The notes beneath the pieces were generated by a model that saw only the letters and a list, made by a program, of their open reading frames with translations, had not been told where the DNA came from and made no database searches. From Klebsiella sp. I138 (lineage in GTDB: Bacteria > Pseudomonadota > Gammaproteobacteria > Enterobacterales > Enterobacteriaceae), in contig NZ_CP180447.1 of the NCBI RefSeq assembly GCF_051131765.1, positions 3,003,893-3,035,892 on the forward strand: a stretch of DNA of 32,000 nt, written 5' to 3'. The number at the start of each line of letters is the position of its first letter. Position 1 is the first letter of the stretch. Below are positions 6,108-21,479 of the stretch, piece by piece. The position numbers and the translations under genes were made by a program.

Positions 6108-6236
6108 CGGTTACTCCACAATCGCCGATCTCGCGCAATAAAGTGGCTCGCCCAATACGCCAGGTGTTGGCAAGCGGCCTGAGTCCTGTTACAACATCAG
6201 CTCGATATCGATATTCCTTTTGAACGGCAGAGAATC

Positions 6237-7340
6237 ATGAGTGATAGCCAGACGCTGGTGGTAAAACTGGGCACCAGTGTTTTAACGGGCGGATCCCGTC
6301 GCCTGAACCGCGCCCATATTGTCGAATTAGTGCGTCAGTGCGCACAGCTGCATGCAATGGGCCACCGTATTGTCATTGTGACCTCCGGGGCTATTGCCGC
6401 CGGACGTGAACATCTCGGCTACCCGGAACTGCCCGCGACCATTGCGTCGAAACAGCTTCTGGCGGCGGTAGGACAGAGCCGTCTGATCCAACTGTGGGAA
6501 CAGCTGTTTTCTATTTATGGTATTCACGTAGGCCAGATGCTGCTGACCCGGGCGGATATGGAAGATCGCGAGCGCTTCCTGAACGCCCGCGACACCCTGC
6601 GCGCGCTGCTGGATAACAACATTGTGCCGGTCATTAATGAGAATGACGCCGTGGCGACCGCCGAAATTAAAGTCGGCGATAACGATAATCTCTCTGCGCT
6701 GGCCGCTATTCTTGCCGGCGCCGATAAGCTGCTGCTGCTGACCGACCAGGCAGGCCTGTTCACCGCCGACCCGCGTAATAACCCGCAGGCGGAGCTGATC
6801 AAAGATGTCTACGGCATTGATGACGCCCTGCGCGCCATCGCCGGCGATAGCGTTTCCGGCCTGGGCACTGGCGGCATGGGAACCAAGCTGCAGGCTGCGG
6901 ATGTCGCCTGCCGCGCCGGTATCGACACCATCATTGCTGCCGGCAACCGTCCAGGCGTGATTGCCGATGTGATGGACAGCGTGTCGGTCGGTACGCGCTT
7001 CCACGCGCAGGAATCACCGCTGGAGAACCGCAAACGCTGGATCTTTGGCGCCCCGCCGGCGGGCGAAATTACCGTTGATGCCGGCGCCACGCAGGCGATT
7101 CTGGAAAGAGGTAGCTCCCTGCTGCCAAAAGGCATCAAAACCGTCACCGGCAATTTCTCCCGTGGCGAAGTGATCCGCATCCGCAATAGCGAAGGTCGCG
7201 ATATTGCTCACGGCGTCAGCCGCTATAACAGCGATGCGCTGCGCCTGATTGCCGGCCAGCACTCGCAGCAGATTGATGCGATTCTGGGCTACGAATACGG
7301 CCCGGTTGCCGTCCATCGTGACGATATGATTATCCGTTAA
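6237..7340 (+). CDS. proB: Glutamate 5-kinase
   Basis: 367 aa with an amino-acid kinase fold N-terminus ([26 protein letters not shown]) and a C-terminal PUA domain. Followed 10 nt later by proA. Confidence 0.95.
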
Positions 7341-7350
7341 GGAGCTGAAA

Positions 7351-8604
7351 ATGCTGGAACAAATGGGCATTGCTGCCAAGGCGGCCTCTTACAAACTCGC
7401 ACAACTCTCCAGCCGTGAAAAAAATCAGGTGCTGGAAAAAATCGCGGACTATCTCGAAGCACAGACCGAAGAGATTCTGCGCGCGAACGCCGATGATCTG
7501 GCGGAAGCCCGCGCCAATGGCCTGAGCGAGGCGCTGCTCGACCGTCTGGCGCTTAACCCGGCGCGCTTAAGCGGCATTGCGAACGATGTGCGGCAGGTGT
7601 GTAACCTGGCCGATCCGGTCGGTCAGGTGATCGACGGTGGCCTGCTTGACAGCGGCCTGCGTATCGAACGCCGCCGCGTGCCGCTGGGGGTCGTGGGCGT
7701 CATTTATGAAGCCCGACCTAACGTGACGGTTGATGTCGCGTCCCTGTGCCTGAAAACCGGCAATGCCGCGATTCTGCGCGGCGGGAAAGAGACCTGGCGT
7801 ACTAATGCCGCCACGGTGAAAGTGATTCAGCGAGCGCTGGAGGAGTGCGGGCTACCGGCGGCAACGATCCAGGCGATTGAGAACCCGGATCGCGCGCTGG
7901 TTGGCGAGATGCTGAAGATGGATAAATACATCGATATGCTGATCCCACGCGGCGGCGCCGGGCTGCATAAGCTGTGCCGCGAACAGTCCACGATTCCGGT
8001 GATCACCGGCGGGATTGGCGTGTGCCATATCTATATTGATGATTCAGCCGACATTGCAGAAGCGCTGAAGGTTATCGTCAACGCCAAGGTTCAGCGTCCA
8101 AGCGCCTGTAACTCAGTAGAAACGCTGCTGGTACATCACAATATTACCGAGCTTTTCCTGCCAGCGCTGAGCAAACAGATGGCAGAAAGCGGCGTAGCGC
8201 TGCACGCCGATGACCGGTCGCTGCCGACACTGCAACACGGTCCGGCATCAGTAGAGCCGGTGAAGGCGGAGCAGTACGATGATGAGTATCTGTCGCTGGA
8301 TCTGAATGTCAAAGTGGTCGCCGACCTCGACGAGGCTATTGCGCATATCCGCGCCCACGGCACCCAGCATTCGGATGCCATCCTGACCCGCACGCTGAGC
8401 AACGCCAACCGCTTTATCAACGAAGTGGATTCCTCGGCGGTGTACATTAACGCCTCTACCCGCTTTACCGACGGCGGCCAGTTTGGCCTCGGCGCAGAAG
8501 TTGCGGTCAGTACCCAGAAGCTGCACGCTCGCGGCCCGATGGGGCTGGAAGCGTTAACGACATATAAGTGGATTGGTTTCGGCGACGATACGATTCGTGC
8601 TTAA
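7351..8604 (+). CDS. proA: Gamma-glutamyl phosphate reductase
   Basis: 417-aa aldehyde-dehydrogenase-type protein ([10 protein letters not shown], catalytic [13 protein letters not shown]). Canonical proBA operon. Confidence 0.95.
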
Positions 8605-8719
8605 TGCTGAGCGGGTGATGCAAAAGTAGCCGTTTGATTCATAAGGCCATTGACGCGTCACCCACTTAGTTTTAACCTTTTACCCCGTGATTCACATTCG
8701 TGGGCACGTCCTTTTCAGG

Positions 8720-8795
8720 GCCGATATAGCTCAGTTGGTAGAGCAGCGCATTCGTAATGCGAAGGTCGTAGGTTCGACTCCTATTATCGGCACCA
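8720..8795 (+). tRNA. thrW: tRNA-Thr (anticodon CGU), thrW
   Basis: 76-nt cloverleaf folded by hand: acceptor GCCGATA/TATCGGC, D arm GCTC/GAGC, anticodon stem GCGCA/TGCGA with loop TTCGTAA (anticodon CGT), T arm GTAGG-TTCGACT-CCTAT, and an encoded CCA. It lies directly downstream of proA, as thrW does in E. coli. Confidence 0.95.
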
Positions 8796-8797
8796 TC
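8779..8797 (+). repeat. attL core (within thrW 3' end)
   Basis: TCCTATTATCGGCACCATC, repeated at 20276-20293. Confidence 0.8.
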
Positions 8798-8907
8798 TCA
8801 ACTTCCCCAAACGTCCGTATTCATCCATAAATACCATGATTTATAAAGGTTTTACTGACTTTTAGTCCGTTATTGTCCGTAACCATCCAGTAGAATCCGA
8901 TACTGAA

Positions 8908-8959
8908 TGTGTATAGGATTGTGTATATGTTCCTGTTCGGTCTTGGATTCCTATACACA
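8908..8959. repeat. TGTGTATAG-type repeats (putative Int arm/operator sites) overlapping the int start
   Basis: TGTGTATAGGA (8908-8918) and TGTGTATATG (8920-8929) are direct repeats. TCCTATACACA (8949-8959) is a perfect inverted copy that abuts the int ATG at 8959. The same motif recurs twice next to attR. Confidence 0.5.
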
Positions 8960-10143
8960 TGCCTTTAAACGATATGCAGATTCGCCGCGCTAAGCCTGAA
9001 GCTAAAACCTATACACTCGGAGATGGGCAAGGCTTGTCATTGCTTATAGAGCCTAATGGAAGCAAGAGCTGGCGGTTCCGCTATCGCTATGCCGGTAAGC
9101 CCAAAATGATCTCGCTTGGTGTGTATCCGACGATCACCCTTGCCGATGCTCGTTCTCGTCGCGACGATGCCCGAAAGCTGGTCGCGGAAGGAAAGAACCC
9201 GAGTGAAGTTCGAAAAGAGCAGAAGATCGCTTTGCAAACGGAATCCGAAAGCGCGTTTGAAAAGATAGCCACAGAATGGCATCAGATGAAGTCGACCAAA
9301 TGGTCAGAGGGCTATGCCTCAGACATCATGGAAGCGTTTAAGAACGATATTTTCCCGTATGTGGGGACAAGACCCATCGGTGAAATAAAACCGCTAGAAC
9401 TGCTTAATGTGCTGCGTAAAATTGAAAAACGTGGAGCGTTAGAGAAAATGCGTAAAGTTCGACAGCGTTGTTCAGAAGTTTTTCGCTATGCCATAGCCAC
9501 CGGAAGAGCTGAGTTTAATCCTGCAGCGGATCTCTCTAGCGCCCTCGAAGTACATCAATCCAATCATTTCCCATTCCTGAAAGCTGATGAGATACCTGAT
9601 TTTCTCCGTGCTTTAGACAGTTACACAGGGAGTCGGCTTGTCCAGATTGCTACAAAATTACTGATGATCACGGGTGTAAGAACCATCGAATTACGTGCAG
9701 CATTATGGTCAGAATTTGATCTAGATAACGCAATTTGGGAAATTCCTGCTGAGAGGATGAAAATGCGCAGACCACATCTTGTGCCATTATCGACTCAAGC
9801 GTTAGATTTACTCAATGAACTTAAAATCATGACAGGAAGCTATTGTTATGTCTTTCCGGGGCGGAATGATCCGAACAAACCAATGAGTGAAGCAAGCATA
9901 AATCAGGTCATTAAGCGCATAGGCTACGGTGGTCAACTTACTGGTCATGGATTCAGGCATATGATGTCTACATTGTTGCATGAGCAGGGCTTTGATTCAT
10001 CTTGGATCGAAATTCAATTAGCACATGTTGATAAAAATAGTATCCGTGGAACTTACAACCATGCTCAGTATTTAGAAAAACGAAGGGGTATGCTTCAGTG
10101 GTACTCATCTATTTTAACGGAGTACAGCAATGTATATAAATAG
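8959..10143 (+). CDS. int: P4-family tyrosine integrase
   Basis: 394 aa. N-terminal arm-binding domain typical of P4-type integrases (RRAKPEAKTYTLGDGQGLSLLIEPNGSKSWRFRYRYAGKPKMISLGVYP). C-terminal catalytic residues lie in HGFRHM and LAH..........Y context. Adjacent to the tRNA att site. Confidence 0.92.
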   Translation: MPLNDMQIRRAKPEAKTYTLGDGQGLSLLIEPNGSKSWRFRYRYAGKPKMISLGVYPTITLADARSRRDDARKLVAEGKNPSEVRKEQKIALQTESESAFEKIATEWHQMKSTKWSEGYASDIMEAFKNDIFPYVGTRPIGEIKPLELLNVLRKIEKRGALEKMRKVRQRCSEVFRYAIATGRAEFNPAADLSSALEVHQSNHFPFLKADEIPDFLRALDSYTGSRLVQIATKLLMITGVRTIELRAALWSEFDLDNAIWEIPAERMKMRRPHLVPLSTQALDLLNELKIMTGSYCYVFPGRNDPNKPMSEASINQVIKRIGYGGQLTGHGFRHMMSTLLHEQGFDSSWIEIQLAHVDKNSIRGTYNHAQYLEKRRGMLQWYSSILTEYSNVYK

Positions 10144-11833
10144 TGTATATCTGAAAGGTTTTCGAAACTATTCTGATAGTTTTATAAAATTCAACCACTC
10201 AACTTTGATAATTGGAAGCAATGACGTTGGGAAAACCAACCTTTTGTATTCACTGAGAATTTTATTAGATAAAAGTTTCTCGGATTTAGATATCGAGCCA
10301 AAAAATAGTGATTTTCACATTGATGGAAAAGGCAACCAATGTGATGAATTAGAAATAATCATCAATTTTCGAGAAATAAAAGAAGATGCTGTACTTTCTA
10401 AGTTAGGAGGATACGTAAGTGATGACTCCGAAACATTTATTAAATACAAAGCGAGTAGAAATACTCTAGACTACAAATTATACATCGGTCATAAAGAAAC
10501 TGATATGGACGAGATTAATGGTAGGTTTTATCTAAAATATCTTAACCTACGTTACGTCAATTCTCAAAGAGATCTTGCTAGATATATATCATCAGAAAAA
10601 AAGCATTTGTTAAGACTTGCTCAAGAAATGAGGGATCATGAACAGGTGATAAAAGACGAGGAAACTTTAAATTCATTAAGTGATTTATTGGTTAATGTAA
10701 ACGATAAAGTTAAAGAGATAAGTTATGTTTCATCGGCGACAAAAGAATTAAATGATGAATTAAAAAAACTATCTTATAACAATGAAAAAATTTCTGTTAT
10801 GCTCGACTCTGGAGCAATCGGCATCGACCAATTCATTGAGAAGTTAGAATTAAGTTCAAATACAAATGGTAAAAAAGTAATGCTTGGTGGAGATGGATTC
10901 AACAATCAAATATTACTTGCATTATGGAAAGCTAAAAGTGTACGTGAGCATGACACTGAGAACGAAGTTGTAATATATTGCGTTGAAGAGCCTGAGTCAC
11001 ATCTTTATCCACATCAACAAAGAAAACTATCTGAGTATCTAATTAATAAATTACCCGGACAATCTCTTGTTACAACCCATTCACCACAGATTGCCGTTAA
11101 TTACTCACCTGATTCAATAATTAAAATATGTTCATCCGATGGTGAGTCTTACGCTGCAAGTGAGGGATGTTCTGATTGCATAAGTGATGCATGGAATGGA
11201 ATGGGATACAGGATAAGCATATTACCCGCAGAAGCTTTTTTTGCAGATGTGGTTTTTTTAGTTGAAGGCCCATCTGAAATGTTATTCTATCAAGCTCTTG
11301 CTAAAGAATGTGATATTGATTTGGACTTTTATAACATAAGTATTTTATCAGTTGACGGAGTCCAATTTGAAGTTTATAGAAAAATTCTTGATTCATTTGA
11401 AATAAAATGGGTTGCACGGACGGATAATGATGTATCTAAAGTACCTAGAAAAGAAGAATGGCAATATGCAGGATTAAACAGAGCTTTAGCCCTCTGCAAA
11501 TATGAACCATTAAAAAATGAATTAACAGAAATAACACAAAAACAGAAATTAGAGAAGCATGCCATTTATAAAGATATTCTCAAACAGAACAATATATATG
11601 TTTCAATTGATGACCTTGAGGGCGATATTAGTATTGAACTGAGAGAGCAGCTTAAAGAATATGTAGGGACAGATGATGCAGAAAAGGCAGCTGATTATCT
11701 AAGAGGTAAGAAAGCCACACGAATGCAAGACTTTTTAAAGGAATATTCAAACTCACTCAGCTCAATATATTTCGGGAAATTAATACTACCTCTTTTAACA
11801 TCAGTATCACTCGCAAAGGAGGGTAAGCAATGA
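10130..11833 (+). CDS. gajA: GajA: OLD-family ABC-ATPase / TOPRIM nuclease of a Gabija defence system
   Basis: 567 aa. Walker A GSNDVGKTNLLYSLRILLDK, Walker B/D-loop VVIYCVEEPESHL, H-loop TTHSP, then TOPRIM glutamate FLVEGPSEMLF and the DxD motif RTDND. The motif string matches Bacillus cereus GajA as I remember it (GMNDIGKTNFLYALRFLLDK, IYLIEEPE, STHSP, LIEGPSEK, KTDND). GGAG Shine-Dalgarno 7 nt upstream. The start overlaps the int 3' end by 14 nt. Confidence 0.88.
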   Translation: MYINSVYLKGFRNYSDSFIKFNHSTLIIGSNDVGKTNLLYSLRILLDKSFSDLDIEPKNSDFHIDGKGNQCDELEIIINFREIKEDAVLSKLGGYVSDDSETFIKYKASRNTLDYKLYIGHKETDMDEINGRFYLKYLNLRYVNSQRDLARYISSEKKHLLRLAQEMRDHEQVIKDEETLNSLSDLLVNVNDKVKEISYVSSATKELNDELKKLSYNNEKISVMLDSGAIGIDQFIEKLELSSNTNGKKVMLGGDGFNNQILLALWKAKSVREHDTENEVVIYCVEEPESHLYPHQQRKLSEYLINKLPGQSLVTTHSPQIAVNYSPDSIIKICSSDGESYAASEGCSDCISDAWNGMGYRISILPAEAFFADVVFLVEGPSEMLFYQALAKECDIDLDFYNISILSVDGVQFEVYRKILDSFEIKWVARTDNDVSKVPRKEEWQYAGLNRALALCKYEPLKNELTEITQKQKLEKHAIYKDILKQNNIYVSIDDLEGDISIELREQLKEYVGTDDAEKAADYLRGKKATRMQDFLKEYSNSLSSIYFGKLILPLLTSVSLAKEGKQ

Positions 11834-13452
11834 TTAATTACACAAAAGAACAAAGTATAGCAATAGAGTATCCATCGAGTATGGTATTAACAGCCTGTCC
11901 CGGAAGCGGTAAGACAGCCGTAATTGTTTCTAAAATAGTAAACGATTTAGCTCTTTGCAACGACTATCAAGGTGTTATTGCTATTTCTTATACAAACAAG
12001 GCTAGTGATGAACTGAAAAAAAGATGTTTAAAAGTAATTTCAGAACCAAAGTCAAGCTTCTTTGGCACGATTGATAAATTTTATCTAACTGAGATAATCT
12101 ATCAATATATCAAGCATATTTGGGGGTATACCGATAAAATAAAAATCATAAAATTCAATGAGCTAGATGAGGCAACCAAAGATAAACTCTCTTGTTTTTC
12201 AAATACTGAGGATGTATGTAAAAAAATTGACACATATGACTTCAAAGAAGTTCGTGATTTATACATCAAGGGTTATATAGTTTTAGAATTCATCCCTTTA
12301 ATTTCTTTTTACGTTTTAATAAACTCTTTATCCTGTCGTAGATATCTGGCAAAAAGATATAAATCCATATATATTGATGAATATCAAGATGCTGGATTTA
12401 TTCAACACCTAATTTTCTTATCCCTATTTAAACTCGGAATTAAAGCTGTTGCTGTTGGGGACGTTGACCAATCTATATACGCTTATGCAGGAAAAAGCTC
12501 AAGATACTTGTCATCATTGTTAGATGAAAAAAGTGGCTTTAAACCATTCGAAATAACAATAAACCATCGTTCTCACCCTTCAATCATTAACTATGCATCT
12601 CGATTAATAAATGAAAACTCTTCTTTGTTAACAAGCGATACTATACATGTATATAGAACTACAATTAATGGTTCCCAGGAAGATATTGTCAAATGGATTG
12701 ACTCTAATATTGGTAGTGTCAAATCCACTTTTGGAATAAAAAAAGAAAGTGAAATTGCCATTCTGGCCGCGACAAATAGCTCAGTTTCGTTAGTGTCTGG
12801 AATAATAAAGACAAAATCTAGAGCTTACCTTGATGATGATCTTTCCATAATAGGCGGGGAAACATCCCTCTTATTAAAAGAACTATTGCGATTTCGTTTT
12901 AATCAAATGGCAACCGCACAAGAGATCATTGATAGTTTAAGAGATAAAGTTTTTGAGAAAAACTTACTGAGAGAAATGAGGTGTGTGATTAAGGATGTAA
13001 GAAAGGCCAGTGAACCTCAACTGATCCCCACATTACGCAAAGCAGTGAAATTATTAATTACTAGTGACATCTCCTCTCAGCATATTGATGCAATTAACTC
13101 AGTCATTCAAAACAAAATGATGCTTAATAATTACTTACCTGTTAGTGAAAATGAGTTGCAGATAATGACCTTGCATAAAGCAAAAGGTCTTGAATTTGAT
13201 TTTGTTTTTCATCTAGATCTTTATGATTGGATATTACCTCGGCGCGAATATATAAAAAATTGCTTTGATGAGGTTTTCTCTCACTATGACCAATGTCTTA
13301 ATCTTCATTATGTTGGAGTTACTCGAGCAAAAAAAGCCATTGTATTAATAAACTCCACGGAAAGATTTAATTTCCAGCATGATTTAAAAAGAGCAAAACC
13401 CTCTCAGTTTCTCTCATTAAACGGACTTGAAGGACTCTATAAAAACATTTAA
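11830..13452 (+). CDS. gajB: GajB: UvrD/PcrA-like SF1 helicase of a Gabija defence system
   Basis: 540 aa. SF1 motifs are CPGSGKT (I), ISYTNKA (Ia), YIDEYQD (II), GDVDQSIY (III), INHRS (IV), LHKAKGLEFDFV (V) and HYVGVTRAKK (VI). ATGA overlap with gajA. Same very AT-rich composition as gajA. Confidence 0.88.
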   Translation: MINYTKEQSIAIEYPSSMVLTACPGSGKTAVIVSKIVNDLALCNDYQGVIAISYTNKASDELKKRCLKVISEPKSSFFGTIDKFYLTEIIYQYIKHIWGYTDKIKIIKFNELDEATKDKLSCFSNTEDVCKKIDTYDFKEVRDLYIKGYIVLEFIPLISFYVLINSLSCRRYLAKRYKSIYIDEYQDAGFIQHLIFLSLFKLGIKAVAVGDVDQSIYAYAGKSSRYLSSLLDEKSGFKPFEITINHRSHPSIINYASRLINENSSLLTSDTIHVYRTTINGSQEDIVKWIDSNIGSVKSTFGIKKESEIAILAATNSSVSLVSGIIKTKSRAYLDDDLSIIGGETSLLLKELLRFRFNQMATAQEIIDSLRDKVFEKNLLREMRCVIKDVRKASEPQLIPTLRKAVKLLITSDISSQHIDAINSVIQNKMMLNNYLPVSENELQIMTLHKAKGLEFDFVFHLDLYDWILPRREYIKNCFDEVFSHYDQCLNLHYVGVTRAKKAIVLINSTERFNFQHDLKRAKPSQFLSLNGLEGLYKNI

Positions 13453-13783
13453 TTGCACGGTATTCCCCCCCCTGCCTCTTGTAACATTCGAATCAGGGGG
13501 TTAACTTAAATCTAAAATAGAATTAATACATGTGATTAGTCAGCTGATAACTTTGAGGTTTCTCTTTCCTCTAAAACCGGTCTCTTTTTGAAACAGAAAT
13601 TAAGGGTTTCCGTAATCTCGGGCAGCATCTACTTCTACTTGACCTAACCGCCTCAAAAGCTCACCACGCCCCCGAACAGCACCGCACCACCCACCGACAC
13701 TCCCGTGAACCCGCGCAGCGCAGCGACGCGCTCAGGCCGCCAAATTAAATATCATTAAATAAATACTTTACCGCTGGCGCGCA

Positions 13784-13802
13784 GTGCTTTCCCCGCCTCG
13801 CC
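13784..13802. other. P2/P4 cos cohesive-end sequence
   Basis: GTGCTTTCCCCGCCTCGCC is the exact reverse complement of the 19-nt P2/P4 cohesive end GGCGAGGCGGGGAAAGCAC as I recall it. It lies about 175 bp beyond the psu stop, as in P4. Confidence 0.8.
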
Positions 13803-13975
13803 TGCCCGCTTCGTGGGTCGGTTTTCATGCAGGTGCGTGGGCAGGCCCTGGCCGCGCCGGGACAGGGCTGCGAAGGGAGTGACGGGACGGGAAAACGCAT
13901 GCAAAGCCATGCACCCTGTGGATGCATGGCTTAATTCGGGAAAAATAGCGGTATTTTCGGGGATTTTTGCGGAGG

Positions 13976-14542
13976 CTACCTGCCGGCCAGTTCCGTGCGC
14001 CGGCGGGCATAAATCAGGCTCTGTGCGGGGGTGTATTTTTCCTGATTATCCACCCGCGAAGCCGCGTCAGGCCTGAATCCGATGGCCGTTAAAATATCGC
14101 TGTCTTCTACGGCATAATTAATTTCTTCACCGGTACTCAGCCACACGGACAGGGCTTCCCTCAGGTAATGCGCCGAACGGTCGAGCGCATGGACGGTCAG
14201 GAGTGCGGGCTGCTGACTGAGACCCATCAGCTCCGGGGCAAGCGTGGCGGCCAGTTCAGCACCGTGCGCCTGCATAAAGTCATTCAGCCGGTTGCGGATA
14301 CTGATGCGCTGCACCGCTTCATGGGAGCGGATATAGCGCCCGGCGGCCTGATTAATTTCCCATTTTTTGACATCCATAATGTCGCGCAGTTCCTGCATAA
14401 TTGCCGGGATACGTTCATCCCCGGCCAGCACCTGCTTGCGGTATTCCTGCTCTGTGGCCGCCAGCTCGGCTTTACGGTTCAGCCAGGCGGTTTTGTTATT
14501 CTGACAGGCCTCAAAGGCCTGCTGTAGCGTAATGGTGGTCAT
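13976..14542 (-). CDS. psu: Psu, polarity suppression / capsid decoration protein (Rho antagonist)
   Basis: 188 aa, collinear with P4 Psu: LQQAFEACQNNKTAWLNRKAELAA, NQAAGRYIRSHEAVQRISIRNRLNDFMQ, INYAVEDSDILTAIGFRPD. Confidence 0.92.
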   Translation of the reverse strand: MTTITLQQAFEACQNNKTAWLNRKAELAATEQEYRKQVLAGDERIPAIMQELRDIMDVKKWEINQAAGRYIRSHEAVQRISIRNRLNDFMQAHGAELAATLAPELMGLSQQPALLTVHALDRSAHYLREALSVWLSTGEEINYAVEDSDILTAIGFRPDAASRVDNQEKYTPAQSLIYARRRTELAGR

Positions 14543-14559
14543 GGTCAGTTCTCCCCTGA

Positions 14560-14805
14560 TTAATGACGGTATGGCGAGCTGTAGCAGCCCTGCACTTTAC
14601 GGGGTGCCGGAGGCGTGACCGGCTCCGCGACAGGCGGCGTTTTCTCCGCCGGGGGCCGGATAACCTCGTCGATGGCTTCAGTGGTGCGGAACGTCGCCGA
14701 GCACTCAATATTGGTGCACTGGTGGTAGCGCTGTTTGACGTTCTCCGACAGGTAGCGGGAGGTACGGGTATGCGCTGACTTTTTGCAGAACGGACAGTGC
14801 ATCAT
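14560..14805 (-). CDS. delta: Delta, Ogr/Delta-family zinc-finger late-gene activator (single-domain form)
   Basis: 81 aa. CPFC...(21)...CTNIEC four-cysteine motif of Ogr/Delta. Its ATG overlaps the sid stop (ATGA). Confidence 0.9.
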   Translation of the reverse strand: MMHCPFCKKSAHTRTSRYLSENVKQRYHQCTNIECSATFRTTEAIDEVIRPPAEKTPPVAEPVTPPAPRKVQGCYSSPYRH

Positions 14806-15539
14806 GGCAGCAGCCCCCGCGCTTTCAGGTCAGCCTCGCGCTGACGGATTTTCTCCTGCCAGACTTTACGCTCGCCGGGCGTGCTGGCGGCGTCGTGGTC
14901 CATGTGCGGAAGCGCGACGGCCGGGAAGCCGGTCAGGGAGAGCACCGGCTCATCCGCTGGCGTGACGGAGAAGGCGCTCACTTTCCCGGTCAGGAAGGTG
15001 ACCACCTGCTGCATGACCTCCTTCTCCGGCTCGATGTAGCCCTGATGGCCGGTGGTGTTGGCCAGCGGATTTTCCATCACCTCTGCTTTCAGCACCATCG
15101 CCCGGACCAGTGGCCCGAGGGTGTCATTCAGCGCGCGGTTAAGCTCTTCCTCAGCGTATTTACTCAGCACAGCATGATGCGCCTGGCGGAATGCACGCGC
15201 GGTGCTGTTGCAGGTGGCTTTCAACTGGTCACGCTCAAAGGCCAGCACTTCGGTCAGATTGTCACATTCCTGCGCCAGCTCCCGGCGGGCCACGTGTTCG
15301 ATATGTCCGCTTTTCAGCTCATCGGTCAGCATGGCACCCCCGGCACGGAAAGCGGCGCGCCAGTTGCGGGTATCGCTCCCGTTGTCCTGCTCCAGCTCCG
15401 CTTTCTGCTCCTCCGCGCGGCTGATGGCCGTCAGGGTGTCCTCCATCCGGCGGGCCTGTTCAAGATGGGCCGCTCTGGCCTCGGCCAGTCGCTCCAGCGC
15501 CGGTTTCAGGTAATCAGGGATAAAGGTGGTGTCGGTCAT
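14802..15539 (-). CDS. sid: Sid, external scaffold / capsid size determination protein
   Basis: Collinear with P4 Sid (IPDYLKPALERLAEARAAHLE, NPLANTTGHQGYIEPEK, KARGLL). I place the start at the ATG at 15539 (MTDTTF, GAGGAAA Shine-Dalgarno 7-8 nt upstream), giving 245 aa. The track start at 15605 would run through the Delta-type activator site. Confidence 0.88.
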   Translation of the reverse strand: MTDTTFIPDYLKPALERLAEARAAHLEQARRMEDTLTAISRAEEQKAELEQDNGSDTRNWRAAFRAGGAMLTDELKSGHIEHVARRELAQECDNLTEVLAFERDQLKATCNSTARAFRQAHHAVLSKYAEEELNRALNDTLGPLVRAMVLKAEVMENPLANTTGHQGYIEPEKEVMQQVVTFLTGKVSAFSVTPADEPVLSLTGFPAVALPHMDHDAASTPGERKVWQEKIRQREADLKARGLLP

Positions 15540-15611
15540 GGCAGGTTTCCTCGTGGTTTCAACATGAGGTGATTCTGCCGGGGCACACACAACAAGGCGA
15601 TTCATTGCAGT

Positions 15612-15629
15612 TGTGGCAGTTCTGGCACA
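15612..15629. promoter_or_regulatory. TGT-N12-ACA dyad, Ogr/Delta activator site of the sid late promoter
   Basis: TGTGGCAGTTCTGGCACA lies 73-90 nt upstream of the sid ATG on the - strand. P2/P4 late promoters carry TGT-N12-ACA centred near -55. Confidence 0.55.
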
Positions 15630-15707
15630 AACAGGACGTCAAAACCCGGCTTGCCAGAGAAAGGTCTCAGGAAAAGCATACTCACCGTTTGTTTTTTTAC
15701 TGTTAAC

Positions 15708-15811
15708 TATTCACCACTATTCACCATAAGAAATAATATAAGTAATACAGTAACATAAAGGGTGAACAGTTGAGGGGTTGACTGTTCACCGTCTGTTCAC
15801 CACTGTTCACC
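15708..15811. repeat. ori-like cluster of alpha-protein type I iterons (TGTTCACC)
   Basis: Six copies: TATTCACC x2 (15708, 15718), inverted GGTGAACA (15761), and TGTTCACC x3 (15783, 15794, 15804). The cluster is about 4.1 kb from the crr-like repeats, matching the P4 ori/crr arrangement. Confidence 0.7.
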
Positions 15812-16098
15812 CTGACTGTTTATTAACCGCTGACTGCTTTTGAGTTTTTAGAATTATTTGGAATAATAAATTAATTTAAAATTCCTATTTGTAATTAACG
15901 CCTTTGCCAACAATGGCCAATAACGGTCAATAATGGCCAATATAGGCCAGCACCTTTTTTTGATTAAAAATTAGCCTGCTGTGTGGTGGGCCACTACAAA
16001 ATGACTTGTTGCCCTCGGGGAAAATATTCACAAAATAGAGAGCTACCCGAGGCCGGACGGACACGACCGGCACTGTATGGACTTTATGAGGTAGCCCG

Positions 16099-16365
16099 AT
16101 GCACACCGCTTTTTCTTCCCCGTCTTCTGCCCCTGCCGCGCCGCTGATGCCGGTCTCTGATACCGTTCCGGAGCGCTTTATCCGCCTGCCCGAAGTGATG
16201 CATCTGTGCGGGCTGTCCCGCTCCACGATTTACGACCTCATCAGCCGGGAGGCTTTCCCGAAACAAATCTCGCTCGGCGGAAAAAACGTGGCGTGGGCGC
16301 AGTCGGAAATCACCGCATGGATGGCGGCTCGCATTGCCGAACGCAACCGGGGCTATGACGCATGA
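16099..16365 (+). CDS. vis: Vis/AlpA-family excisionase-regulator (P4 orf88 equivalent)
   Basis: 88 aa, the same length as P4 Vis. AlpA-type [52 protein letters not shown]. Divergent from sid. Confidence 0.85.
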
Positions 16366-16400
16366 TGATGCCCGTTCCGCAAAAAGCCCCTTTTTCTGGC

Positions 16401-16430
16401 TTGCTTCCCTTCGTCGTTTCCAGGTATAGT
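16401..16430 (+). promoter_or_regulatory. Candidate early promoter (PLE-like)
   Basis: TTGCTT, an 18-nt spacer, then TATAGT. It sits just upstream of the seqA-like element, the terminator and the CI-like RNA. Confidence 0.4.
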
Positions 16431-16492
16431 TTTGCCGCTGTCGCAAAATCGGCAGCCGGAATTGGCGTTCCGCAATACTCAATGGCGACACC

Positions 16493-16516
16493 AGACGCGC
16501 CACGCGTCTTTTTTTA
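16493..16516 (+). terminator. Rho-independent terminator inside the immunity leader
   Basis: AGACGCG-cca-CGCGTCT hairpin followed by a T7 run. It lies inside the 185-aa track ORF, which argues against that ORF. Confidence 0.65.
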
Positions 16517-16588
16517 CGTCGTTGCTCAGGCACACCTATTTTCCGGGCTGTGGTGTTTACGCACACACCGCAGCTCCAGCAAGATAAT

Positions 16589-16668
16589 GGTGGTCCGGGC
16601 GGGGCAGCCTTCGGGCTGGCCGGTACCCATTGAGGCCGGTTACGCCAACCCCGTTCGGGCTACCACCA
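16589..16668 (+). ncRNA. cI: P4 CI-like immunity RNA (tRNA-like, RNase P-processed class)
   Basis: Hand fold. The closing stem GGUGGU (16589-94) pairs with ACCACC (16662-67), followed by A, giving an RCCA-like 3' end. An extended stem joins CCGGGCGGGG and CCCCGUUCGGG. Inside is a perfect CAGCC-UUCG-GGCUG tetraloop hairpin and a second hairpin GCCGG...CCGGU. An exposed CCGGUUACGCCAACC (16636-50, seqB-like) is complementary to AATTGGCGTT elements at 16460-72 and 16673-87. The boundaries are approximate. Confidence 0.5.
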
Positions 16669-16724
16669 GTGAAATTGGCGTTTCCGGTGGTAGCAGTAAC
16701 CGCTACTCAATGGAGGCTGCCATC

Positions 16725-16919
16725 ATGGCTACTATCCTCACCCCGTCACACCCGCAGTTTGTCTTTGTGTTTGCCGCCGTCCGTCGTGCCGACCGTCAGC
16801 CCCGTATCTGTATGCTCCGCGCCGTCGCCGGGGATGAACACGCCGCACGTCTTTCCCTCGTCCGCGATTACATCCTCTCGTTTGCCGGTCGTCTGCCGGT
16901 AGCGGAGGTGCGCGCATGA
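16725..16919 (+). CDS. Small early-operon protein, possibly Icd-like cell-division inhibitor family
   Basis: 64-aa ORF starting [24 protein letters not shown], with a GGAGG Shine-Dalgarno 8 nt upstream. The C-terminal LSFAGRLPV motif resembles proteins annotated as Icd-like in P4-type prophages (from memory). ATGA coupling to the next gene. This is the only credible part of track ORF 16362-16919. Confidence 0.5.
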
Positions 16920-17143
16920 AACAGCCCGCCATCACCGTCAAAGACCTCGAATGCCTGGAGCACCTGCGTAACGTCGGCCAGTTCGTCGGCGAGCTGATGC
17001 AGGTGCAGGACTGTACTTCCCTGCGTCGTGACCCGACCCAGCAGTTACAGCTCACCTCCGTGATTTACCTCATGACCGCCCAGCTCGACGGCGTGGTCGA
17101 ACGCTGTAATCACCGCTGGTTCACCGGGGAGGGCAACGTATGA
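16916..17143 (+). CDS. Hypothetical early-operon protein (75 aa)
   Basis: Translationally coupled on both sides (ATGA overlaps at 16916 and 17140). It occupies the position held by epsilon/orf151 in P4. I do not recognise the sequence. Confidence 0.55.
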
Positions 17144-17460
17144 AAACGCCATTACCGCCCGTATTGCGCGCTGCCCTGTATCGCCGCGCCGTGGCCTGTG
17201 CCTGGCTGACCCTGTGCGAACGTCAGCACCGCTATCCCCACCTCACCCTCGACGCGCTGGAAAGCGCCATCGCCGCCGAGCTGGAGGGCTTCTACCTGCG
17301 CCAACACGGCGAGGAAAAAGGCCGTCTGATTGCCTGTGCGCTTCTGGAAGATTTGATGCAGGCCGGGCCGCTGAAAGCCGCCCCGTCGCTGTCCTTCCTC
17401 GGACTCGCCGTGATGGATGAGCTCTGTGCCCGCCATATCACATCGCCTGTACTGCACTGA
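17140..17460 (+). CDS. Hypothetical early-operon protein (106 aa)
   Basis: Coupled to the upstream ORF and ends 14 nt before alpha. Codon usage is like the rest of the satellite. No recognisable motif. Confidence 0.55.
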
Positions 17461-17474
17461 GGGAGACAATCACC

Positions 17475-19808
17475 ATGAAAATGAACGTAACGGACACGGT
17501 AAAACAGGCGTGCGGCCACTGGCCGCGCATTCTCCCGGCGCTGGGAATGAAAGTGATAAAAAACCGCCATCAGGCCTGCCCGGTGTGTGGCGGCGCTGAC
17601 CGGTTCCGCTTTGACGATAAAGAGGGGCGTGGCACATGGTTCTGTAACCAGTGCGGCGCCGGTGACGGCCTGAAACTGGTTGAGAAGGTGTTCGGCGTGT
17701 CGGCATCCGAGGCGGCCGGGAAGGTGAACGCCGTCACCGGCAACCTGCCACCGGTGGCCCCGGAGGCGACAGCAGCCGCAGACGCCGGAACGGAGGCCGA
17801 CCGCAAAGCAGCGGCCGCGCTGGCCGTCAGACTGCTGGAGAAAACCCGCCCGGCCACCGGCAACGCCTACCTGACCCGCAAGGGCTTTGCCGGTCGTGAG
17901 TGTCTGACGCTGACAGCTTCCCACAAAACCGGCGGCGTGGCCTACCGTGACGGTGATGTGGTGGTGCCGCTGTATGACGAGTCCGGCGCGCTGGTTAACC
18001 TCCAGTTTATTAATGCTGAGGGGCTCAAGCGCACCCTGAAGGGCGGGCAGGTCAAAGGCGCATGCCATCTCATCGACGGACAGAAACAGGCCGGAAAACG
18101 TCTGTGGATAGCGGAGGGCTATGCAACAGCCCTTACCGTGCATCACCTGACCGGAGAAACAGTCATGGTGGCGCTGTCGTCCGTGAACCTTCTTTCTCTG
18201 GCGAGCCTGGCCCGCAGCAAGCACCCGGCCTGTCAGATTATCCTCGCCGCCGACCGTGACCTTAACGGCGACGGCCAGAACAAAGCCACCGCAGCCGCTC
18301 AGGCCTGTGAGGGCGTTGTCGCCCTGCCGCCGGTGTTCGGTGACTGGAATGATGCGGTGATGCTGAAGGGGGAAGACGCCACACGGAAAGCCATTTGTGC
18401 CGCCATCCGGCCAGCAACACAAAGCCCCTTTGATACCATGAGCGAGGCGGAATTTACCGCCATGAGCGCCAGCGACAAGGCCTGGCGGGTACATGAGCAT
18501 TACGGCGAAGCGCTGGCGGTGGATGCGAACGGCCAGCTCCTGTCCCGTTATGAAGCAGGGATATGGAAAGTCATTCAGCCGTCCAATTTCGAACGCGACG
18601 TAGCAGGGCTTTTCCAGCGCCTGCGCGCCCCGTTCTCGTCGGGGAGAATCACCTCAGTGGTGGAGACGCTGAAGCTGATTATTCCTCAGCAGGCCGCACC
18701 GGCACGCCGTCTGATTGGTTTTCGCAACGGGGTACTCGATACCCAGAGCGGCCTGTTCAGCCCGCACAGCAAATCGCACTGGCTGCGCACGCTGTGCGAC
18801 GTGGATTTTACTCCGCCGGTAGAAGGGGAAACGCTGGAAACCCATGCGCCTAACTTCTGGCGCTGGCTCGATCGGGCGGCCAGTGGCAACCCGACAAAAC
18901 GCGACGTGATTCTGGCCGCGCTGTTTATGGTGCTGGCGAACCGCTACGACTGGCAGCTCTTTCTCGAAGTGACCGGCCCCGGTGGCAGCGGGAAAAGTAT
19001 TCTGGCCGAAATCGCCACGATGCTGGCCGGAGAGGATAACGCCACATCGGCGAATATCGACACGCTGGAAGACCCGCGTAAGCGTGCCTCCCTGATTGGC
19101 TTCTCGCTGATACGTCTGCCTGACCAGGAGAAATGGAGTGGTGACGGTGCGGGGCTCAAGGCCATCACCGGCGGCGATGCGGTGTCGGTCGACCCGAAAT
19201 ACCAGAACCCGTACTCAACGCATATCCCGGCGGTGATTCTGGCCGTGAACAATAACCCGATGCGCTTCACCGACCGCAGCGGCGGCGTGTCACGTCGCCG
19301 GGTGATTATCCACTTCCCGGAGCAGATAGCCCCGGAGGAGCGCGACCCGCAGCTCAGGGATAAAATCGCCCGCGAGCTGGCCGTCATCGTGCGCCAGCTG
19401 ATGCAGCAGTTCAGTGACCCGATGAGTGCCCGTTCGCTGCTCCAGTCGCAGCAGAACTCCGATGAGGCGCTCAGTATTAAACGCGACGCTGACCCGACCT
19501 TTGATTTTTGCGGCTATCTGGAGGCGCTGCCGCAGACCAATGGGATGTTTATGGGGAATGCCAGTATCATCCCGCGTAATTACCGTAAATATCTCTATCA
19601 CGCGTATCTGGCCTATATGGAGGCCAACGGGTACAGGAATGTGCTCAGCCTGAAAATGTTCGGGCTGGGACTGCCCATGATGCTGAAAGAGTACGGGATG
19701 AATTATGAGAAGCGGCACACAAAGCAGGGGATCCAGACCAACCTGTCGCTGAAAGAAGAAAGCTACGGCGACTGGCTGCCGAAGTGCGACGAACCCACCG
19801 CGACTTAA
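17475..19808 (+). CDS. alpha: Alpha: P4-type primase-helicase-origin binding replication protein
   Basis: 777 aa, the same length as P4 alpha. N-terminal zinc motif CPVCGGADRFRFDDKEGRGTWFCNQC, TOPRIM-type primase (IAEGYATALT, ILAADRD), SF3 helicase Walker A GPGGSGKS, and a C-terminal DNA-binding region. GGGAGA Shine-Dalgarno. Confidence 0.93.
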   Translation: MKMNVTDTVKQACGHWPRILPALGMKVIKNRHQACPVCGGADRFRFDDKEGRGTWFCNQCGAGDGLKLVEKVFGVSASEAAGKVNAVTGNLPPVAPEATAAADAGTEADRKAAAALAVRLLEKTRPATGNAYLTRKGFAGRECLTLTASHKTGGVAYRDGDVVVPLYDESGALVNLQFINAEGLKRTLKGGQVKGACHLIDGQKQAGKRLWIAEGYATALTVHHLTGETVMVALSSVNLLSLASLARSKHPACQIILAADRDLNGDGQNKATAAAQACEGVVALPPVFGDWNDAVMLKGEDATRKAICAAIRPATQSPFDTMSEAEFTAMSASDKAWRVHEHYGEALAVDANGQLLSRYEAGIWKVIQPSNFERDVAGLFQRLRAPFSSGRITSVVETLKLIIPQQAAPARRLIGFRNGVLDTQSGLFSPHSKSHWLRTLCDVDFTPPVEGETLETHAPNFWRWLDRAASGNPTKRDVILAALFMVLANRYDWQLFLEVTGPGGSGKSILAEIATMLAGEDNATSANIDTLEDPRKRASLIGFSLIRLPDQEKWSGDGAGLKAITGGDAVSVDPKYQNPYSTHIPAVILAVNNNPMRFTDRSGGVSRRRVIIHFPEQIAPEERDPQLRDKIARELAVIVRQLMQQFSDPMSARSLLQSQQNSDEALSIKRDADPTFDFCGYLEALPQTNGMFMGNASIIPRNYRKYLYHAYLAYMEANGYRNVLSLKMFGLGLPMMLKEYGMNYEKRHTKQGIQTNLSLKEESYGDWLPKCDEPTAT

Positions 19809-19860: not shown

Positions 19861-20160
19861 GGTGAACAATCCACTGTTCACCCTTCACCGTATATTCACC
19901 CTGTATCACTATGAAAGTATTAATAAAAAACCAAAGGTGAACAGTGTGAACAGTTAAACCCAAAAAAACTTTTTACCCCCCCCTCTCATCACCATCGTAT
20001 TGCGATGATGATCGCCGGAAACAGGTCAAAAACGCGCTGAGGTGAAGAGTTGACTGTTCACTCTTCACCAACTGATAACCACCTATCATTATGATATTAA
20101 AAAGAAAAATAATGAGGTGAACAGTGTGAACAGTTAAATGCAAAAAAACTTTTTCTTACT
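19861..20160. repeat. crr-like cis replication region: two ~120-bp direct repeats with 180-bp period
   Basis: Copy 1 starts at 19861 and copy 2 at 20041. Both run GGTGAA...ACTGTTCAC..CTTCACC...TATCA.TATGA...AGGTGAACAGTGTGAACAGTTAAA..CAAAAAAACTTTTT. Each carries several TGTTCACC/GGTGAACA iterons. P4 crr is two 120-bp repeats separated by 60 bp. Confidence 0.75.
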
Positions 20161-20195: not shown

Positions 20196-20216
20196 TGTGT
20201 ATAGGGATGTGTATAG
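20196..20216 (+). repeat. TGTGTATAG repeats (putative Int arm sites) on the attR side
   Basis: TGTGTATAGGG followed by ATGTGTATAG. This is the same motif as at 8908-8959 next to attL. Confidence 0.5.
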
Positions 20217-20275: not shown

Positions 20276-20293
20276 TCCTATTATCGCACCATC
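20276..20293 (+). repeat. attR core
   Basis: TCCTATTATCGCACCATC equals the attL core minus one G (GG becomes G). Confidence 0.75.
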
Positions 20294-21470: not shown

Positions 21471-21479
21471 AATTCATCC

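What the first reader, a model, noticed from the sequence alone, without database searches (positions are those of the whole stretch)
10130..13452. Gabija (GajA/GajB) anti-phage cassette carried as cargo in the int-cos hotspot of a P4-like satellite
The two overlapping genes have every diagnostic motif of the Gabija pair. gajA encodes an ABC-ATPase plus TOPRIM OLD-type nuclease, and gajB encodes an SF1 UvrD-like helicase.

They occupy exactly the position where P4 carries its non-essential gop-beta-cII region, between int and cos/psu. This is the known variable defence hotspot of P4-like satellites.

The cassette is far more AT-rich by eye than the psu-to-alpha backbone, and int itself drifts toward AT-richness at its 3' end. 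gajA starts 14 nt inside int, so its expression may be tied to int transcription.

Gabija is an already described system, so this is a well-supported accessory system rather than a novel one. The context matters: a mobilisable satellite delivers it, which may affect infection by phages other than the helper.
Basis: partly seen in the sequence, partly recalled or inferred. Interest (0 to 1): 0.65.

Follow-up and report, generated by a model that had tools for sequence, protein, structure and literature searches.

The report
Gabija defence cassette in P4-like satellite
The two genes are an intact Gabija (GajA nuclease and GajB helicase) anti-phage pair carried as cargo in the known variable defence slot of a P4-like phage satellite; this is a correct call, but of a system and a context that are already published.

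Summary
The observation and the interpretation both hold. ORFs 10130-11833 (567 aa) and 11830-13452 (540 aa) overlap by 4 nt. They match PADLOC GajA and GajB models end to end (E 8e-253 and 4.5e-219). All experimentally defined GajA residues and all SF1 helicase motifs are retained. The genes are under strong purifying selection.

They lie in an 11.5-kb P4-like satellite inserted at tRNA-Thr(CGT) next to proBA. Every backbone part was found: attL/attR, int, an exact 19-nt P2/P4 cos core, psu, delta, sid, CI/C4 RNA, alpha and crr repeats.

The cassette is about 33% GC against about 59% for the backbone. It fills the int-cos slot where P4 carries gop-beta-cII. A sister satellite with a 90%-identical backbone carries an AAA-ATPase/HNH pair there instead. 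All seven relatives with GajA at least 60% identical sit in the same slot.

The 14-nt int/gajA overlap is real. It arises because the int stop codon present in the E. coli relative is absent here. Coupling of gajAB expression to int transcription is plausible but untested.

The psu-int hotspot (Rousset 2022) and Gabija enrichment in it (Nat Commun 2025) are published, so this is a known, ordinary case of low interest.

The parts
8720..8797 (+). tRNA-Thr(CGT), the thrW-type integration site. Its 3' end holds the attL core TCCTATTATCGGCACCATC at 8779-8797.
   Evidence: ARAGORN, Rfam tRNA and the sequence itself. Homology with the same satellite in another genome begins at 8761.
8959..10143 (+). 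P4-type tyrosine integrase (394 aa). Its last roughly 80 codons belong to the exchanged module.
   Evidence: Pfam Arm-DNA-bind_3, Phage_int_M and Phage_integrase. PHROG integrase. Identity to the sister satellite with other cargo is 88-99% up to about 9897, 71-76% over 9898-10097, and random after 10098.
10130..11833 (+). gajA: ABC-type ATPase plus TOPRIM, a class 2 OLD nuclease (567 aa).
   Evidence: PADLOC GajA PDLC00066, E 8e-253, full length. Pfam AAA_15 and OLD-like_TOPRIM. Best PDB match is B. cereus GajA 8jq9, E 1.8e-32. K35, H317, E379, D432, D434, D495 and K528 align with BcGajA K35, H320, E379, D432, D434, D511 and K541.
11830..13452 (+). gajB: SF1 UvrD-like helicase (540 aa). Its start overlaps the gajA stop codon (ATGA).
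   Evidence: PADLOC GajB PDLC00123, E 4.5e-219, full length. Pfam UvrD-helicase and UvrD_C. Best PDB match is B. cereus GajB 8jqb, E 1.5e-28. All SF1 motifs are present.
13453..13634 (.). AT-rich spacer after gajB. It contains no ORF of at least 50 aa and no significant RNA structure. Probably a cargo tail or a remnant.
   Evidence: It has no counterpart in E. coli L001 or Buttiauxella L005, where the gajB stop abuts cos. It is poorly conserved against L007. Fold z-score is -0.55.
13635..13802 (-). Conserved cos-proximal backbone, with the 19-nt P2/P4 cohesive-end core GGCGAGGCGGGGAAAGCAC at 13784-13802.
   Evidence: Exact match, with 0.01 expected by chance. Backbone homology with L002 resumes at 13635. 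The region is conserved in L002 and L007.
13976..14542 (-). psu (polarity suppression / capsid decoration), 188 aa.
   Evidence: PHROG 6366, E 1.8e-84. Pfam Psu on the same gene in L003.
14560..14805 (-). delta (Ogr/Delta zinc-finger late-gene activator), 81 aa.
   Evidence: PHROG 603. Pfam Ogr_Delta in L003.
14802..15605 (-). sid (capsid size determination), 267 aa.
   Evidence: PHROG 6165, E 1.3e-88, which is the family that contains P4 sid.
16099..16365 (+). AlpA / ORF88-like excisionase-regulator, 88 aa.
   Evidence: PHROG 2790 and 66. P4 ORF88 carries the same annotation.
16437..16670 (+). P4 immunity region RNAs: isrK (16437-16514) and the C4/CI antisense RNA (16583-16670).
   Evidence: Rfam RF01394 at 72.8 bits and RF01695 at 81.3 bits, both above their gathering scores.
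17140..17460 (+). ORF106 / DUF5375 homologue.
   Evidence: PHROG 5991, E 7.9e-54. DNA homology to P4 ORF106.
17475..19808 (+). alpha primase-helicase, 777 aa.
   Evidence: PHROG 2249, E 1.3e-231. 80.7% nucleotide identity to the P4 alpha-crr region.
19861..20154 (+). crr: two direct repeats of about 114 nt that carry TGTTCACC-type octamers.
   Evidence: Repeat family D1. Matches the annotated 120-bp crr direct repeats of P4. Sequence.
20276..20293 (+). attR core TCCTATTATCG-CACCATC. It lacks one base present in attL. One att copy to the next spans about 11.5 kb.
   Evidence: Sequence. Homology with satellites in E. coli and in GCA_044977185.1 ends at 20292.

Best explanation
The two genes 10130-13452 are a functional type of Gabija system. 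GajA is an ABC-ATPase plus TOPRIM class 2 OLD nuclease. GajB is an SF1 UvrD-like helicase.

The pair is the only cargo in the int-cos variable hotspot of an 11.5-kb P4-like satellite. The satellite is integrated at tRNA-Thr(CGT) downstream of proBA in an enterobacterial chromosome.

The following steps are inferred from work on B. cereus and P. aeruginosa Gabija and are not shown here:
- The proteins assemble into a GajA4:GajB4 complex.
- The GajA TOPRIM site (E379, D432/D434, D495, K528) nicks or cleaves invading phage DNA.
- The ATPase domain acts as a nucleotide sensor that keeps the nuclease off at normal NTP levels.
- GajB acts on DNA ends and hydrolyses (d)ATP/(d)GTP, which reinforces activation.

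The lysogen is thereby protected from phages. The satellite, and indirectly its P2-like helper, would gain from this in competition with other phages.

gajB is translationally coupled to gajA. Only about 25 nt of cargo-specific sequence precede the gajA ATG, and they lie inside int. gajAB is therefore most likely transcribed from within or upstream of int. This step is also inferred.
For: - ORFs and overlaps.
- PADLOC gives full-length GajA (8e-253) and GajB (4.5e-219) hits, with other systems more than 180 orders of magnitude weaker.
- Pfam architecture is AAA_15 + OLD-like_TOPRIM and UvrD-helicase + UvrD_C.
- The closest solved structures are B. cereus GajA and GajB.
- Residues shown by mutagenesis or structure to matter in BcGajA (PMC8136825, PMC10781630) are conserved, and all helicase motifs are present.
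- Purifying selection: pN 0.08-0.17 against pS 0.63-0.75. Gene lengths are identical in the three lineages compared (the window, E. coli and Buttiauxella).
- Satellite parts: tRNA, exact cos, backbone genes, C4 RNA, P4 DNA homology and crr, att repeats.
- Hotspot behaviour: E. coli 63-2 has a 90%-identical backbone with AAA-ATPase + HNH in the slot. All 7 loci with GajA at least 60% identical have int-gajAB-cos.
- Mobility: the same satellite, 96.7% nt identical, occurs in another genome beside other integrated elements.
- Literature: the psu-int hotspot (PMC9122126) and Gabija enrichment there (PMC11718236).
Against: - Nothing was tested experimentally for this variant. It is only 28.5% identical to the characterised B. 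cereus GajA, so DNA specificity, nucleotide sensing and the abortive or non-abortive outcome could differ.
- The 'invariant' TOPRIM glycine (Bc G409) aligns with D409. A glycine follows at position 410.
- No promoter-like site stands out upstream of gajA. The scan found fewer sites than in shuffled sequence, so the transcription route is unknown.
- The published Gabija mechanisms are not fully reconciled with each other: NTP-depletion sensing versus targeting of RecBCD-free DNA ends.
Confidence: 0.9

Rival explanations
1. The pair belongs to a different OLD-ATPase/helicase system (PARIS, P2 Old class 1, Septu, retron- or DRT-associated helicase), or it serves the satellite's own replication or helper interference rather than defence.
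For: GajA also matches AriA (2e-26), and GajB also matches the DRT-associated RTasHel (8e-35), in PADLOC. OLD-family ATPase/TOPRIM proteins form one large superfamily (PMC9122126).
Against: The Gabija models win by more than 180 orders of magnitude and align end to end. There is no DUF4435/AriB, reverse transcriptase or HNH partner. The two ORFs fill the slot, with no further ORF of at least 50 aa between gajB and cos. The cassette is dispensable for the satellite, because a sister element with a 90%-identical backbone carries unrelated cargo there. The P4 replication functions (alpha, crr) are present separately.
Confidence: 0.03
2. The cassette is an inactive, decaying remnant carried passively by a domesticated satellite.
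For: In Buttiauxella the surrounding satellite is decayed: the psu fragment matches only 66 of 188 aa and there is no delta, sid or alpha. attR differs from attL by a 1-nt deletion. No clear promoter was found.
Against: Both ORFs are intact and full length against their profiles. The catalytic residues are conserved. pN is far below pS and there are no indels between the three lineages compared (the window, E. coli and Buttiauxella). All satellite backbone genes in the window are intact. A 96.7%-identical copy exists in another genome in a different neighbourhood.
Confidence: 0.05
3. Rival on expression only: gajAB is driven by its own promoter embedded in the 3' coding part of int, not by read-through from the int promoter. 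Defence expression would then be independent of integrase regulation.
For: The last roughly 80 codons of int travel with the cassette and are AT-rich, so they could hold a promoter. Rousset et al. obtained activity from hotspot systems cloned with 'native promoters'.
Against: The scan finds no promoter-like site between 9450 and 10130 on the + strand. The int/gajA junction is tight (1-nt spacing or an overlap) in every Gabija carrier examined, which is typical of operon organisation.
Confidence: 0.35

Closest known systems
Gabija of Bacillus cereus VD045 (GajA/GajB; PDB 8jq9, 8sm3, 8j4t, 8u7i)
   Same: The two-gene layout and the domain architecture are the same. K35, H320, E379, D432, D434, D511 and K541 of BcGajA all have conserved equivalents, and all SF1 motifs are present.
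   Different: Only about 28.5% identity over the aligned GajA residues. GajB is 540 aa against about 494 aa. The host is a Gram-negative enterobacterium. The cassette is carried on a phage satellite. DNA recognition specificity is unknown.
Gabija cassettes in E. coli P4-like satellites at thrW (e.g. strain KCJ3K291, WP_021546002.1 / WP_097418185.1)
   Same: Gene order is identical: proBA - tRNA-Thr - int - gajA (1704 nt) - gajB (1623 nt) - cos - psu - delta - sid ... alpha. Int is about 91% identical.
   Different: GajA is 85% and GajB 72% identical. In E. coli int stops 1 nt before gajA, whereas here that stop codon is absent and the genes overlap by 14 nt. In E. coli the gajB stop abuts cos, whereas here about 330 nt intervene. 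The backbone here is closer (90% nt) to a Klebsiella-type element.
gop-beta-cII of reference satellite P4 (NC_001609)
   Same: It occupies the same slot, between cos and int, and is non-essential cargo with anti-phage activity (PMC9122126).
   Different: The proteins and the mechanism are unrelated.
P2 Old (class 1 OLD nuclease) and PARIS (AriA/AriB)
   Same: Both combine ABC-ATPase and TOPRIM chemistry. Both are carried in the cos-proximal hotspots of P2 and P4 elements.
   Different: Old is a single protein with no helicase partner. PARIS splits the ATPase and TOPRIM onto two proteins and has no helicase. PADLOC AriA scores 2e-26 here against 8e-253 for GajA.

Membership tests
Gabija (GajA/GajB) | GajA has an N-terminal ABC-type ATPase with a Walker A lysine and a C-terminal OLD-type TOPRIM with the catalytic Glu and DxD. 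| tested here: met
   Pfam AAA_15 (1.7e-29) and OLD-like_TOPRIM (1.5e-18). K35, E379 and D432/D434 are conserved, as are D495 and K528, the equivalents of Bc D511 and K541.
Gabija (GajA/GajB) | Profile membership of GajA: the DefenseFinder/PADLOC-type HMM hit is the best hit and is full length. | tested here: met
   PDLC00066, E 8e-253, residues 1-564 against profile 1-565 of 567. The next non-Gabija model, AriA, scores 2e-26.
Gabija (GajA/GajB) | GajB is an SF1A UvrD/PcrA/Rep-like helicase with Walker A and a DEXQD box. | tested here: met
   PDLC00123, E 4.5e-219, full length. Pfam UvrD-helicase and UvrD_C. ACPGSGKT, DEYQD, GDVDQSIY, NHRS, TLHKAKGLEF and YVGVTRA are present.
Gabija (GajA/GajB) | The two genes are adjacent and co-oriented, as one operon. 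| tested here: met
   4-nt ATGA overlap, with an AAGGAGG Shine-Dalgarno 7 nt before the gajB ATG.
Gabija (GajA/GajB) | A GajA4:GajB4 supramolecular complex forms. | not testable with these tools
   Known for B. cereus (PMC10781630, PMC10822852).
Gabija (GajA/GajB) | Anti-phage protection requires both genes, and the nuclease is regulated by nucleotides. | not testable with these tools
   This needs plaque assays and in-vitro nuclease assays. Only conservation of H317 (equivalent to Bc H320, which is implicated in ATP inhibition) was seen.
Class 2 OLD nucleases | An OLD-family ATPase/TOPRIM gene is paired with an adjacent UvrD/PcrA/Rep-like helicase gene. | tested here: met
   (PDB hit 6nk8, a class 2 OLD family nuclease). 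The definition is quoted in PMC10781630.
P4-like phage satellite | The core gene set is present: int, psu, delta, sid, alpha, an AlpA-like regulator and the CI RNA immunity region. | tested here: met
   PHROGs and Pfam. Rfam C4 and isrK. 72-81% nucleotide identity to P4 sid-delta and alpha-crr.
P4-like phage satellite | A P2-type cos packaging site lies between psu and the cargo. | tested here: met
   Exact 19-nt GGCGAGGCGGGGAAAGCAC at 13784-13802, with 0.01 expected by chance.
P4-like phage satellite | Integration at a tRNA gene with flanking att repeats, and a P4-like size. | tested here: met
   tRNA-Thr(CGT). 19-nt and 18-nt att cores at 8779-8797 and 20276-20293, giving about 11.5 kb against 11,624 bp for P4. 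Inter-genome homology ends at 8761 and 20292.
P4-like phage satellite | Mobilisation by a P2-like helper phage. | not testable with these tools
   Only indirect evidence: a 96.7%-identical copy in another genome, and the cos region is 77-79% identical to Klebsiella phage records of about 34-35 kb.
P4 psu-int defence hotspot (Rousset et al. 2022) | A variable cargo lies between conserved int and cos/psu and differs between otherwise homologous satellites. | tested here: met
   Window against L002: homology runs 6166-10104, then resumes at 13635. L002 carries AAA ATPase + HNH in between. P4 carries gop-beta-cII there.
PARIS (AriA/AriB) | A separate ABC ATPase (AriA) and a DUF4435/TOPRIM protein (AriB), with no helicase. 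| tested here: not met
   ATPase and TOPRIM are fused in one protein, and the partner is a UvrD-like helicase.

The most novel reading that the evidence does not exclude
This satellite-borne Gabija lineage may be adapted to life next to cos. It travels with the 3' end of int and is always found in the int-cos slot. Its GajB diverges fast (45-72% identity across the distinct carriers, the near-identical copies L003/L004 aside) while Int stays at 89-92%. A recent model holds that Gabija attacks linear DNA ends not protected by RecBCD and blocks genome circularisation. The satellite and its P2-like helper both enter cells as cos-ended linear DNA. This lineage might therefore have evolved int-coupled expression, or a specificity that spares P2/P4-type cohesive ends. 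That would be a built-in form of helper and self tolerance.
Probability: 0.1. Interest if true: 0.5.

Novelty: already known. Interest (0 to 1): 0.15.

Why it matters
It matters mainly as a clean annotation. It shows that the first-stage reader can recognise a defence system and its mobile context from raw sequence.

Biologically it adds one more documented case of a mobilisable satellite spreading Gabija among Enterobacteria.

Two small details are useful to people studying hotspot turnover. The cargo-exchange boundary lies inside the last roughly 80 codons of int. The cassette has no room for a promoter of its own between int and gajA.

None of this changes current understanding.

Tried and rejected
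- Direct-repeat search with a 12-nt seed did not find the att repeats, because attR has a 1-nt deletion. I found them by reading both ends.
- The promoter and terminator scan of 8600-14100 gave no more sites than shuffled sequence, and none between 9450 and 10130. The driving promoter is therefore not identified.
- NCBIfam has no Gabija-specific model. It returned only sub-threshold RecF, UvrD and Rep hits.
- The single-protein scan of genome contigs returned only one locus, Buttiauxella. The single-protein scan of viral contigs returned none. A 3-sequence alignment query was needed to recover 14 loci.
- The 13453-13634 spacer was tested for conservation and RNA structure. It is poorly conserved and has a fold z-score of -0.55, so I rejected it as a functional element.
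- Plasmid-borne relatives reach at most 59% identity (Pantoea, Erwinia). No E. coli plasmid is among the top listed hits, so the plasmid Gabija that co-localises with tmn in E. coli is probably a different subtype; it was not compared directly.
- The host species was not determined. The flanks phoE-proBA-thrW and a chaperone-usher fimbrial operon indicate an enterobacterium with about 57-60% GC.
- Searches failed for technical reasons and were repeated.
Full report
**Observation**

They overlap by 4 nt (ATGA). Each has a Shine-Dalgarno sequence 7 nt upstream of its start codon.

The integrase ORF 8959-10143 overlaps the first gene by 14 nt, as stated.

The compositional contrast is real and sharp. 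GC is 0.30-0.36 across 10001-13500, against 0.53-0.66 over most of 13501-19500. The steps fall at about 10000 and about 13600. int declines from 0.54 to 0.42 GC towards its 3' end.

**What the genes are**

- PADLOC gives GajA (PDLC00066, E 8e-253, residues 1-564 on profile positions 1-565 of 567).
- PADLOC gives GajB (PDLC00123, E 4.5e-219, residues 1-540 on profile positions 2-539 of 540).
- The best models of any other system are far weaker: AriA at 2e-26 and the DRT-associated helicase at 8e-35.
- Pfam shows AAA_15 + OLD-like_TOPRIM for the first protein and UvrD-helicase + UvrD_C for the second.
- NCBIfam has no specific model and gave only sub-threshold hits.
- The closest solved structures are B. 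cereus GajA (8jq9, E 1.8e-32) and GajB (8jqb, E 1.5e-28).

I mapped the residues defined by mutagenesis and structure in B. cereus (K35, H320, E379, D511 and K541 in PMC8136825; E379, G409 and D432/D434 in PMC10781630) onto the window protein. K35, H317, E379, D432, D434, D495 and K528 are all conserved. The 'invariant' glycine aligns with D409, and a glycine follows at position 410.

GajB has the P-loop (ACPGSGKT, K28), Ia (YTNKA), DEYQD, GDVDQSIY, NHRS, TLHKAKGLEF and YVGVTRA.

Identity to B. cereus GajA is only 28.5% over the aligned residues. This is a distant subtype of the family, but PADLOC already models it end to end.

**Are the genes alive?**

I compared the window with E. coli KCJ3K291 (L001) and Buttiauxella brennerae (L005).
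- Both genes have identical lengths (1704 and 1623 nt) in all three, with no indels.
- pN is 0.08-0.17 against pS 0.63-0.75, which is strong purifying selection with saturated synonymous sites.
- An identical GajA and a 99.8%-identical GajB occur in GCA_044977185.1 and in a Logan assembly.

**Context**

The element is a P4-like satellite, and every expected part is present.
- tRNA-Thr(CGT) lies at 8720-8795, downstream of phoE-proB-proA.
- The attL core lies at 8779-8797. A copy lacking one base (attR) lies at 20276-20293. One att copy to the next spans about 11.5 kb, against 11,624 bp for P4.
- int is present.
- There is an exact 19-nt P2/P4 cohesive-end core at 13784-13802, with 0.01 expected by chance.
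- psu, delta and sid lie on the minus strand. An AlpA/ORF88-like gene, ORF106/DUF5375 and the 777-aa alpha primase lie on the plus strand.
- The CI/C4 antisense RNA and isrK are found at 16437-16670.
- Two crr-type direct repeats lie at 19861-20154.
- The alpha-crr segment is 80.7% identical at DNA level to reference P4, and the sid-delta segment is 72% identical.
- Homology with satellites in other genomes stops at 8761 and 20292, which matches the att boundaries.

**The slot**

In reference P4 the order is cos - gop - beta - cII - int - attP.

E. coli 63-2 gives direct evidence of hotspot behaviour. Its satellite backbone is 90% identical to the window's, but it carries an AAA-family ATPase plus an HNH endonuclease in the slot. 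Homology to that element is 88-99% through int up to about 9897. It drops to 71-76% over 9898-10097, is random after 10098, and resumes at 13635. The exchanged module therefore includes roughly the last 80 codons of int.

I collected 19 loci carrying relatives. All seven with GajA at least 60% identical have int immediately upstream and cos immediately downstream. They are L001 (E. coli), L003 and L004 (the two identical copies), L005 (Buttiauxella) and L007, L008 and L009 (three IMG/VR contigs). Six of them also have a detectable psu match; the 4.3-kb contig L004 ends at cos. Relatives at or below 52% identity lie in other contexts.

Int stays 89-92% identical across the distinct carriers. 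Leaving aside the two near-identical copies (L003, L004), GajA ranges from 62 to 87% and GajB from 45 to 72%.

In E. coli, 56 of 5,426 complete genomes give a blastn match to the cassette, 15 of them over at least 80% of its length. All matches are chromosomal.

**Expression**

In E. coli the int stop codon lies 1 nt before the gajA ATG. In the window that stop codon is absent and int runs 5 codons further, which produces the 14-nt overlap.

In all carriers the junction is too tight to hold a promoter. The promoter scan finds nothing on the + strand between 9450 and 10130, and overall finds fewer sites than in shuffled sequence.

Co-transcription with int, or a promoter buried in the int coding sequence, are the two options. 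I favour the first but cannot test it. gajAB is convergent with psu, so the idea that Psu anti-termination extends the psu operon into the cargo (PMC11718236) does not apply in the sense orientation here.

**Mechanism (inferred from the family)**

The published picture has several parts.
- A GajA4:GajB4 complex forms.
- The TOPRIM domain nicks or cleaves DNA.
- NTPs inhibit the nuclease through the ATPase domain, and this inhibition is relieved during phage replication (PMC8136825).
- GajB senses DNA ends and hydrolyses (d)ATP/(d)GTP (bioRxiv 10.1101/2023.05.02.539174).
- A newer model holds that Gabija targets linear DNA ends not occupied by RecBCD and blocks circularisation (PMC12407980).

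Which of these applies to this subtype is unknown.

**Comparison with what is known**

The psu-int hotspot of P4-like satellites was defined by Rousset et al. 2022 (PMC9122126). A later survey of psu neighbourhoods states that these loci are enriched in Gabija (PMC11718236). An E. coli Gabija from ECOR49 has been shown to restrict lambda 10^5-fold. Plasmid relatives of the window's GajA reach at most 59% identity and no E. coli plasmid is among the top listed hits, so that plasmid-associated Gabija is probably a different subtype.

The system, the carrier and their combination are thus all already described. The exact proteins are already in public assemblies.

**Verdict**

Novelty is 'already known' and interest is low.

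The only mildly new details are these:
- The cargo boundary lies inside int.
- There is no promoter space between int and gajA.
- GajB diverges fast relative to Int within the satellite-borne clade.
- A non-conserved spacer of about 180 nt (13453-13634) follows gajB. It shows no structure signal.

Noticed in passing
L005 (Buttiauxella brennerae NZ_LXER01000011.1) 8618-19229: int-gajAB-cos is retained (about 79% nt identity to the window), but psu is reduced to a 66-aa fragment and delta, sid and alpha are missing. Immediately downstream, on the minus strand, are a 799-aa adenosine-deaminase-domain protein and a 936-aa AAA_16 ATPase. That pair looks like RADAR (RdrB/RdrA). This would be a decayed satellite fused into a defence island.
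   Followed up: partly
L003 (GCA_044977185.1 contig DBBTMK010000003.1) 1-20746: The same satellite (96.7% nt over 11.5 kb) sits between another integrase-bearing phage-like element (Phage_cap_E, second integrase) on the left and the start of a second P4-like int (83% identical) on the right. This is a tandem array of elements at the same att site.
   Followed up: partly
window 13453-13634: An AT-rich spacer of about 180 nt lies between the gajB stop and the conserved cos-proximal region. It is absent from the E. coli and Buttiauxella Gabija satellites, where gajB abuts cos. It is not conserved in L007 and has no significant fold. It may be a relic of an earlier cargo exchange.
   Followed up: yes
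window 8909-8927 and 20199-20218: The near-identical motifs GTGTATAGGATTGTGTATA and GTGTATAGGGATGTGTATAG lie about 110-130 nt inside attL and about 60-75 nt inside attR. They are probably integrase arm-type binding repeats, like the attP arm repeats annotated in P4.
   Followed up: no
window 16362-16919: The 185-aa ORF that PHROGs calls a transcriptional repressor, and RefSeq calls Icd-like, overlaps the Rfam isrK (16437-16514) and C4/CI RNA (16583-16670) matches. Part of this 'ORF' is probably the P4 immunity RNA region rather than coding sequence.
   Followed up: partly
window 14560-14805: delta here is a single 81-aa Ogr/Delta zinc-finger unit, whereas P4 delta is 166 aa. P4's epsilon and ORF151 have no counterparts of those sizes among the ORFs called between sid and alpha. 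With the larger 3.3-kb cargo, the element still totals about 11.5 kb, which would fit a packaging-size constraint.
   Followed up: no
window 20409-25437 (minus strand): A chaperone-usher fimbrial operon (FimA-like subunit, PapD chaperone, 833-aa usher, 353-aa adhesin-like subunit) starts right after attR. A LuxR/GerE-type regulator lies upstream at 25538-26113.
   Followed up: partly
window 25000-31000, especially 29532-30860 (+): A second low-GC block (0.32-0.46) contains a 442-aa protein with a Clostridium P-47 domain (E 1.9e-13), a family linked to toxin-associated OrfX/P47 proteins. It may be another horizontally acquired island.
   Followed up: no
L002 (E. coli 63-2) 4026-5919: A sister satellite carries an AAA-family ATPase (1248 nt) overlapping an HNH endonuclease (654 nt) in the same int-cos slot. 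This is a Septu-like pair, not checked with PADLOC.
   Followed up: no
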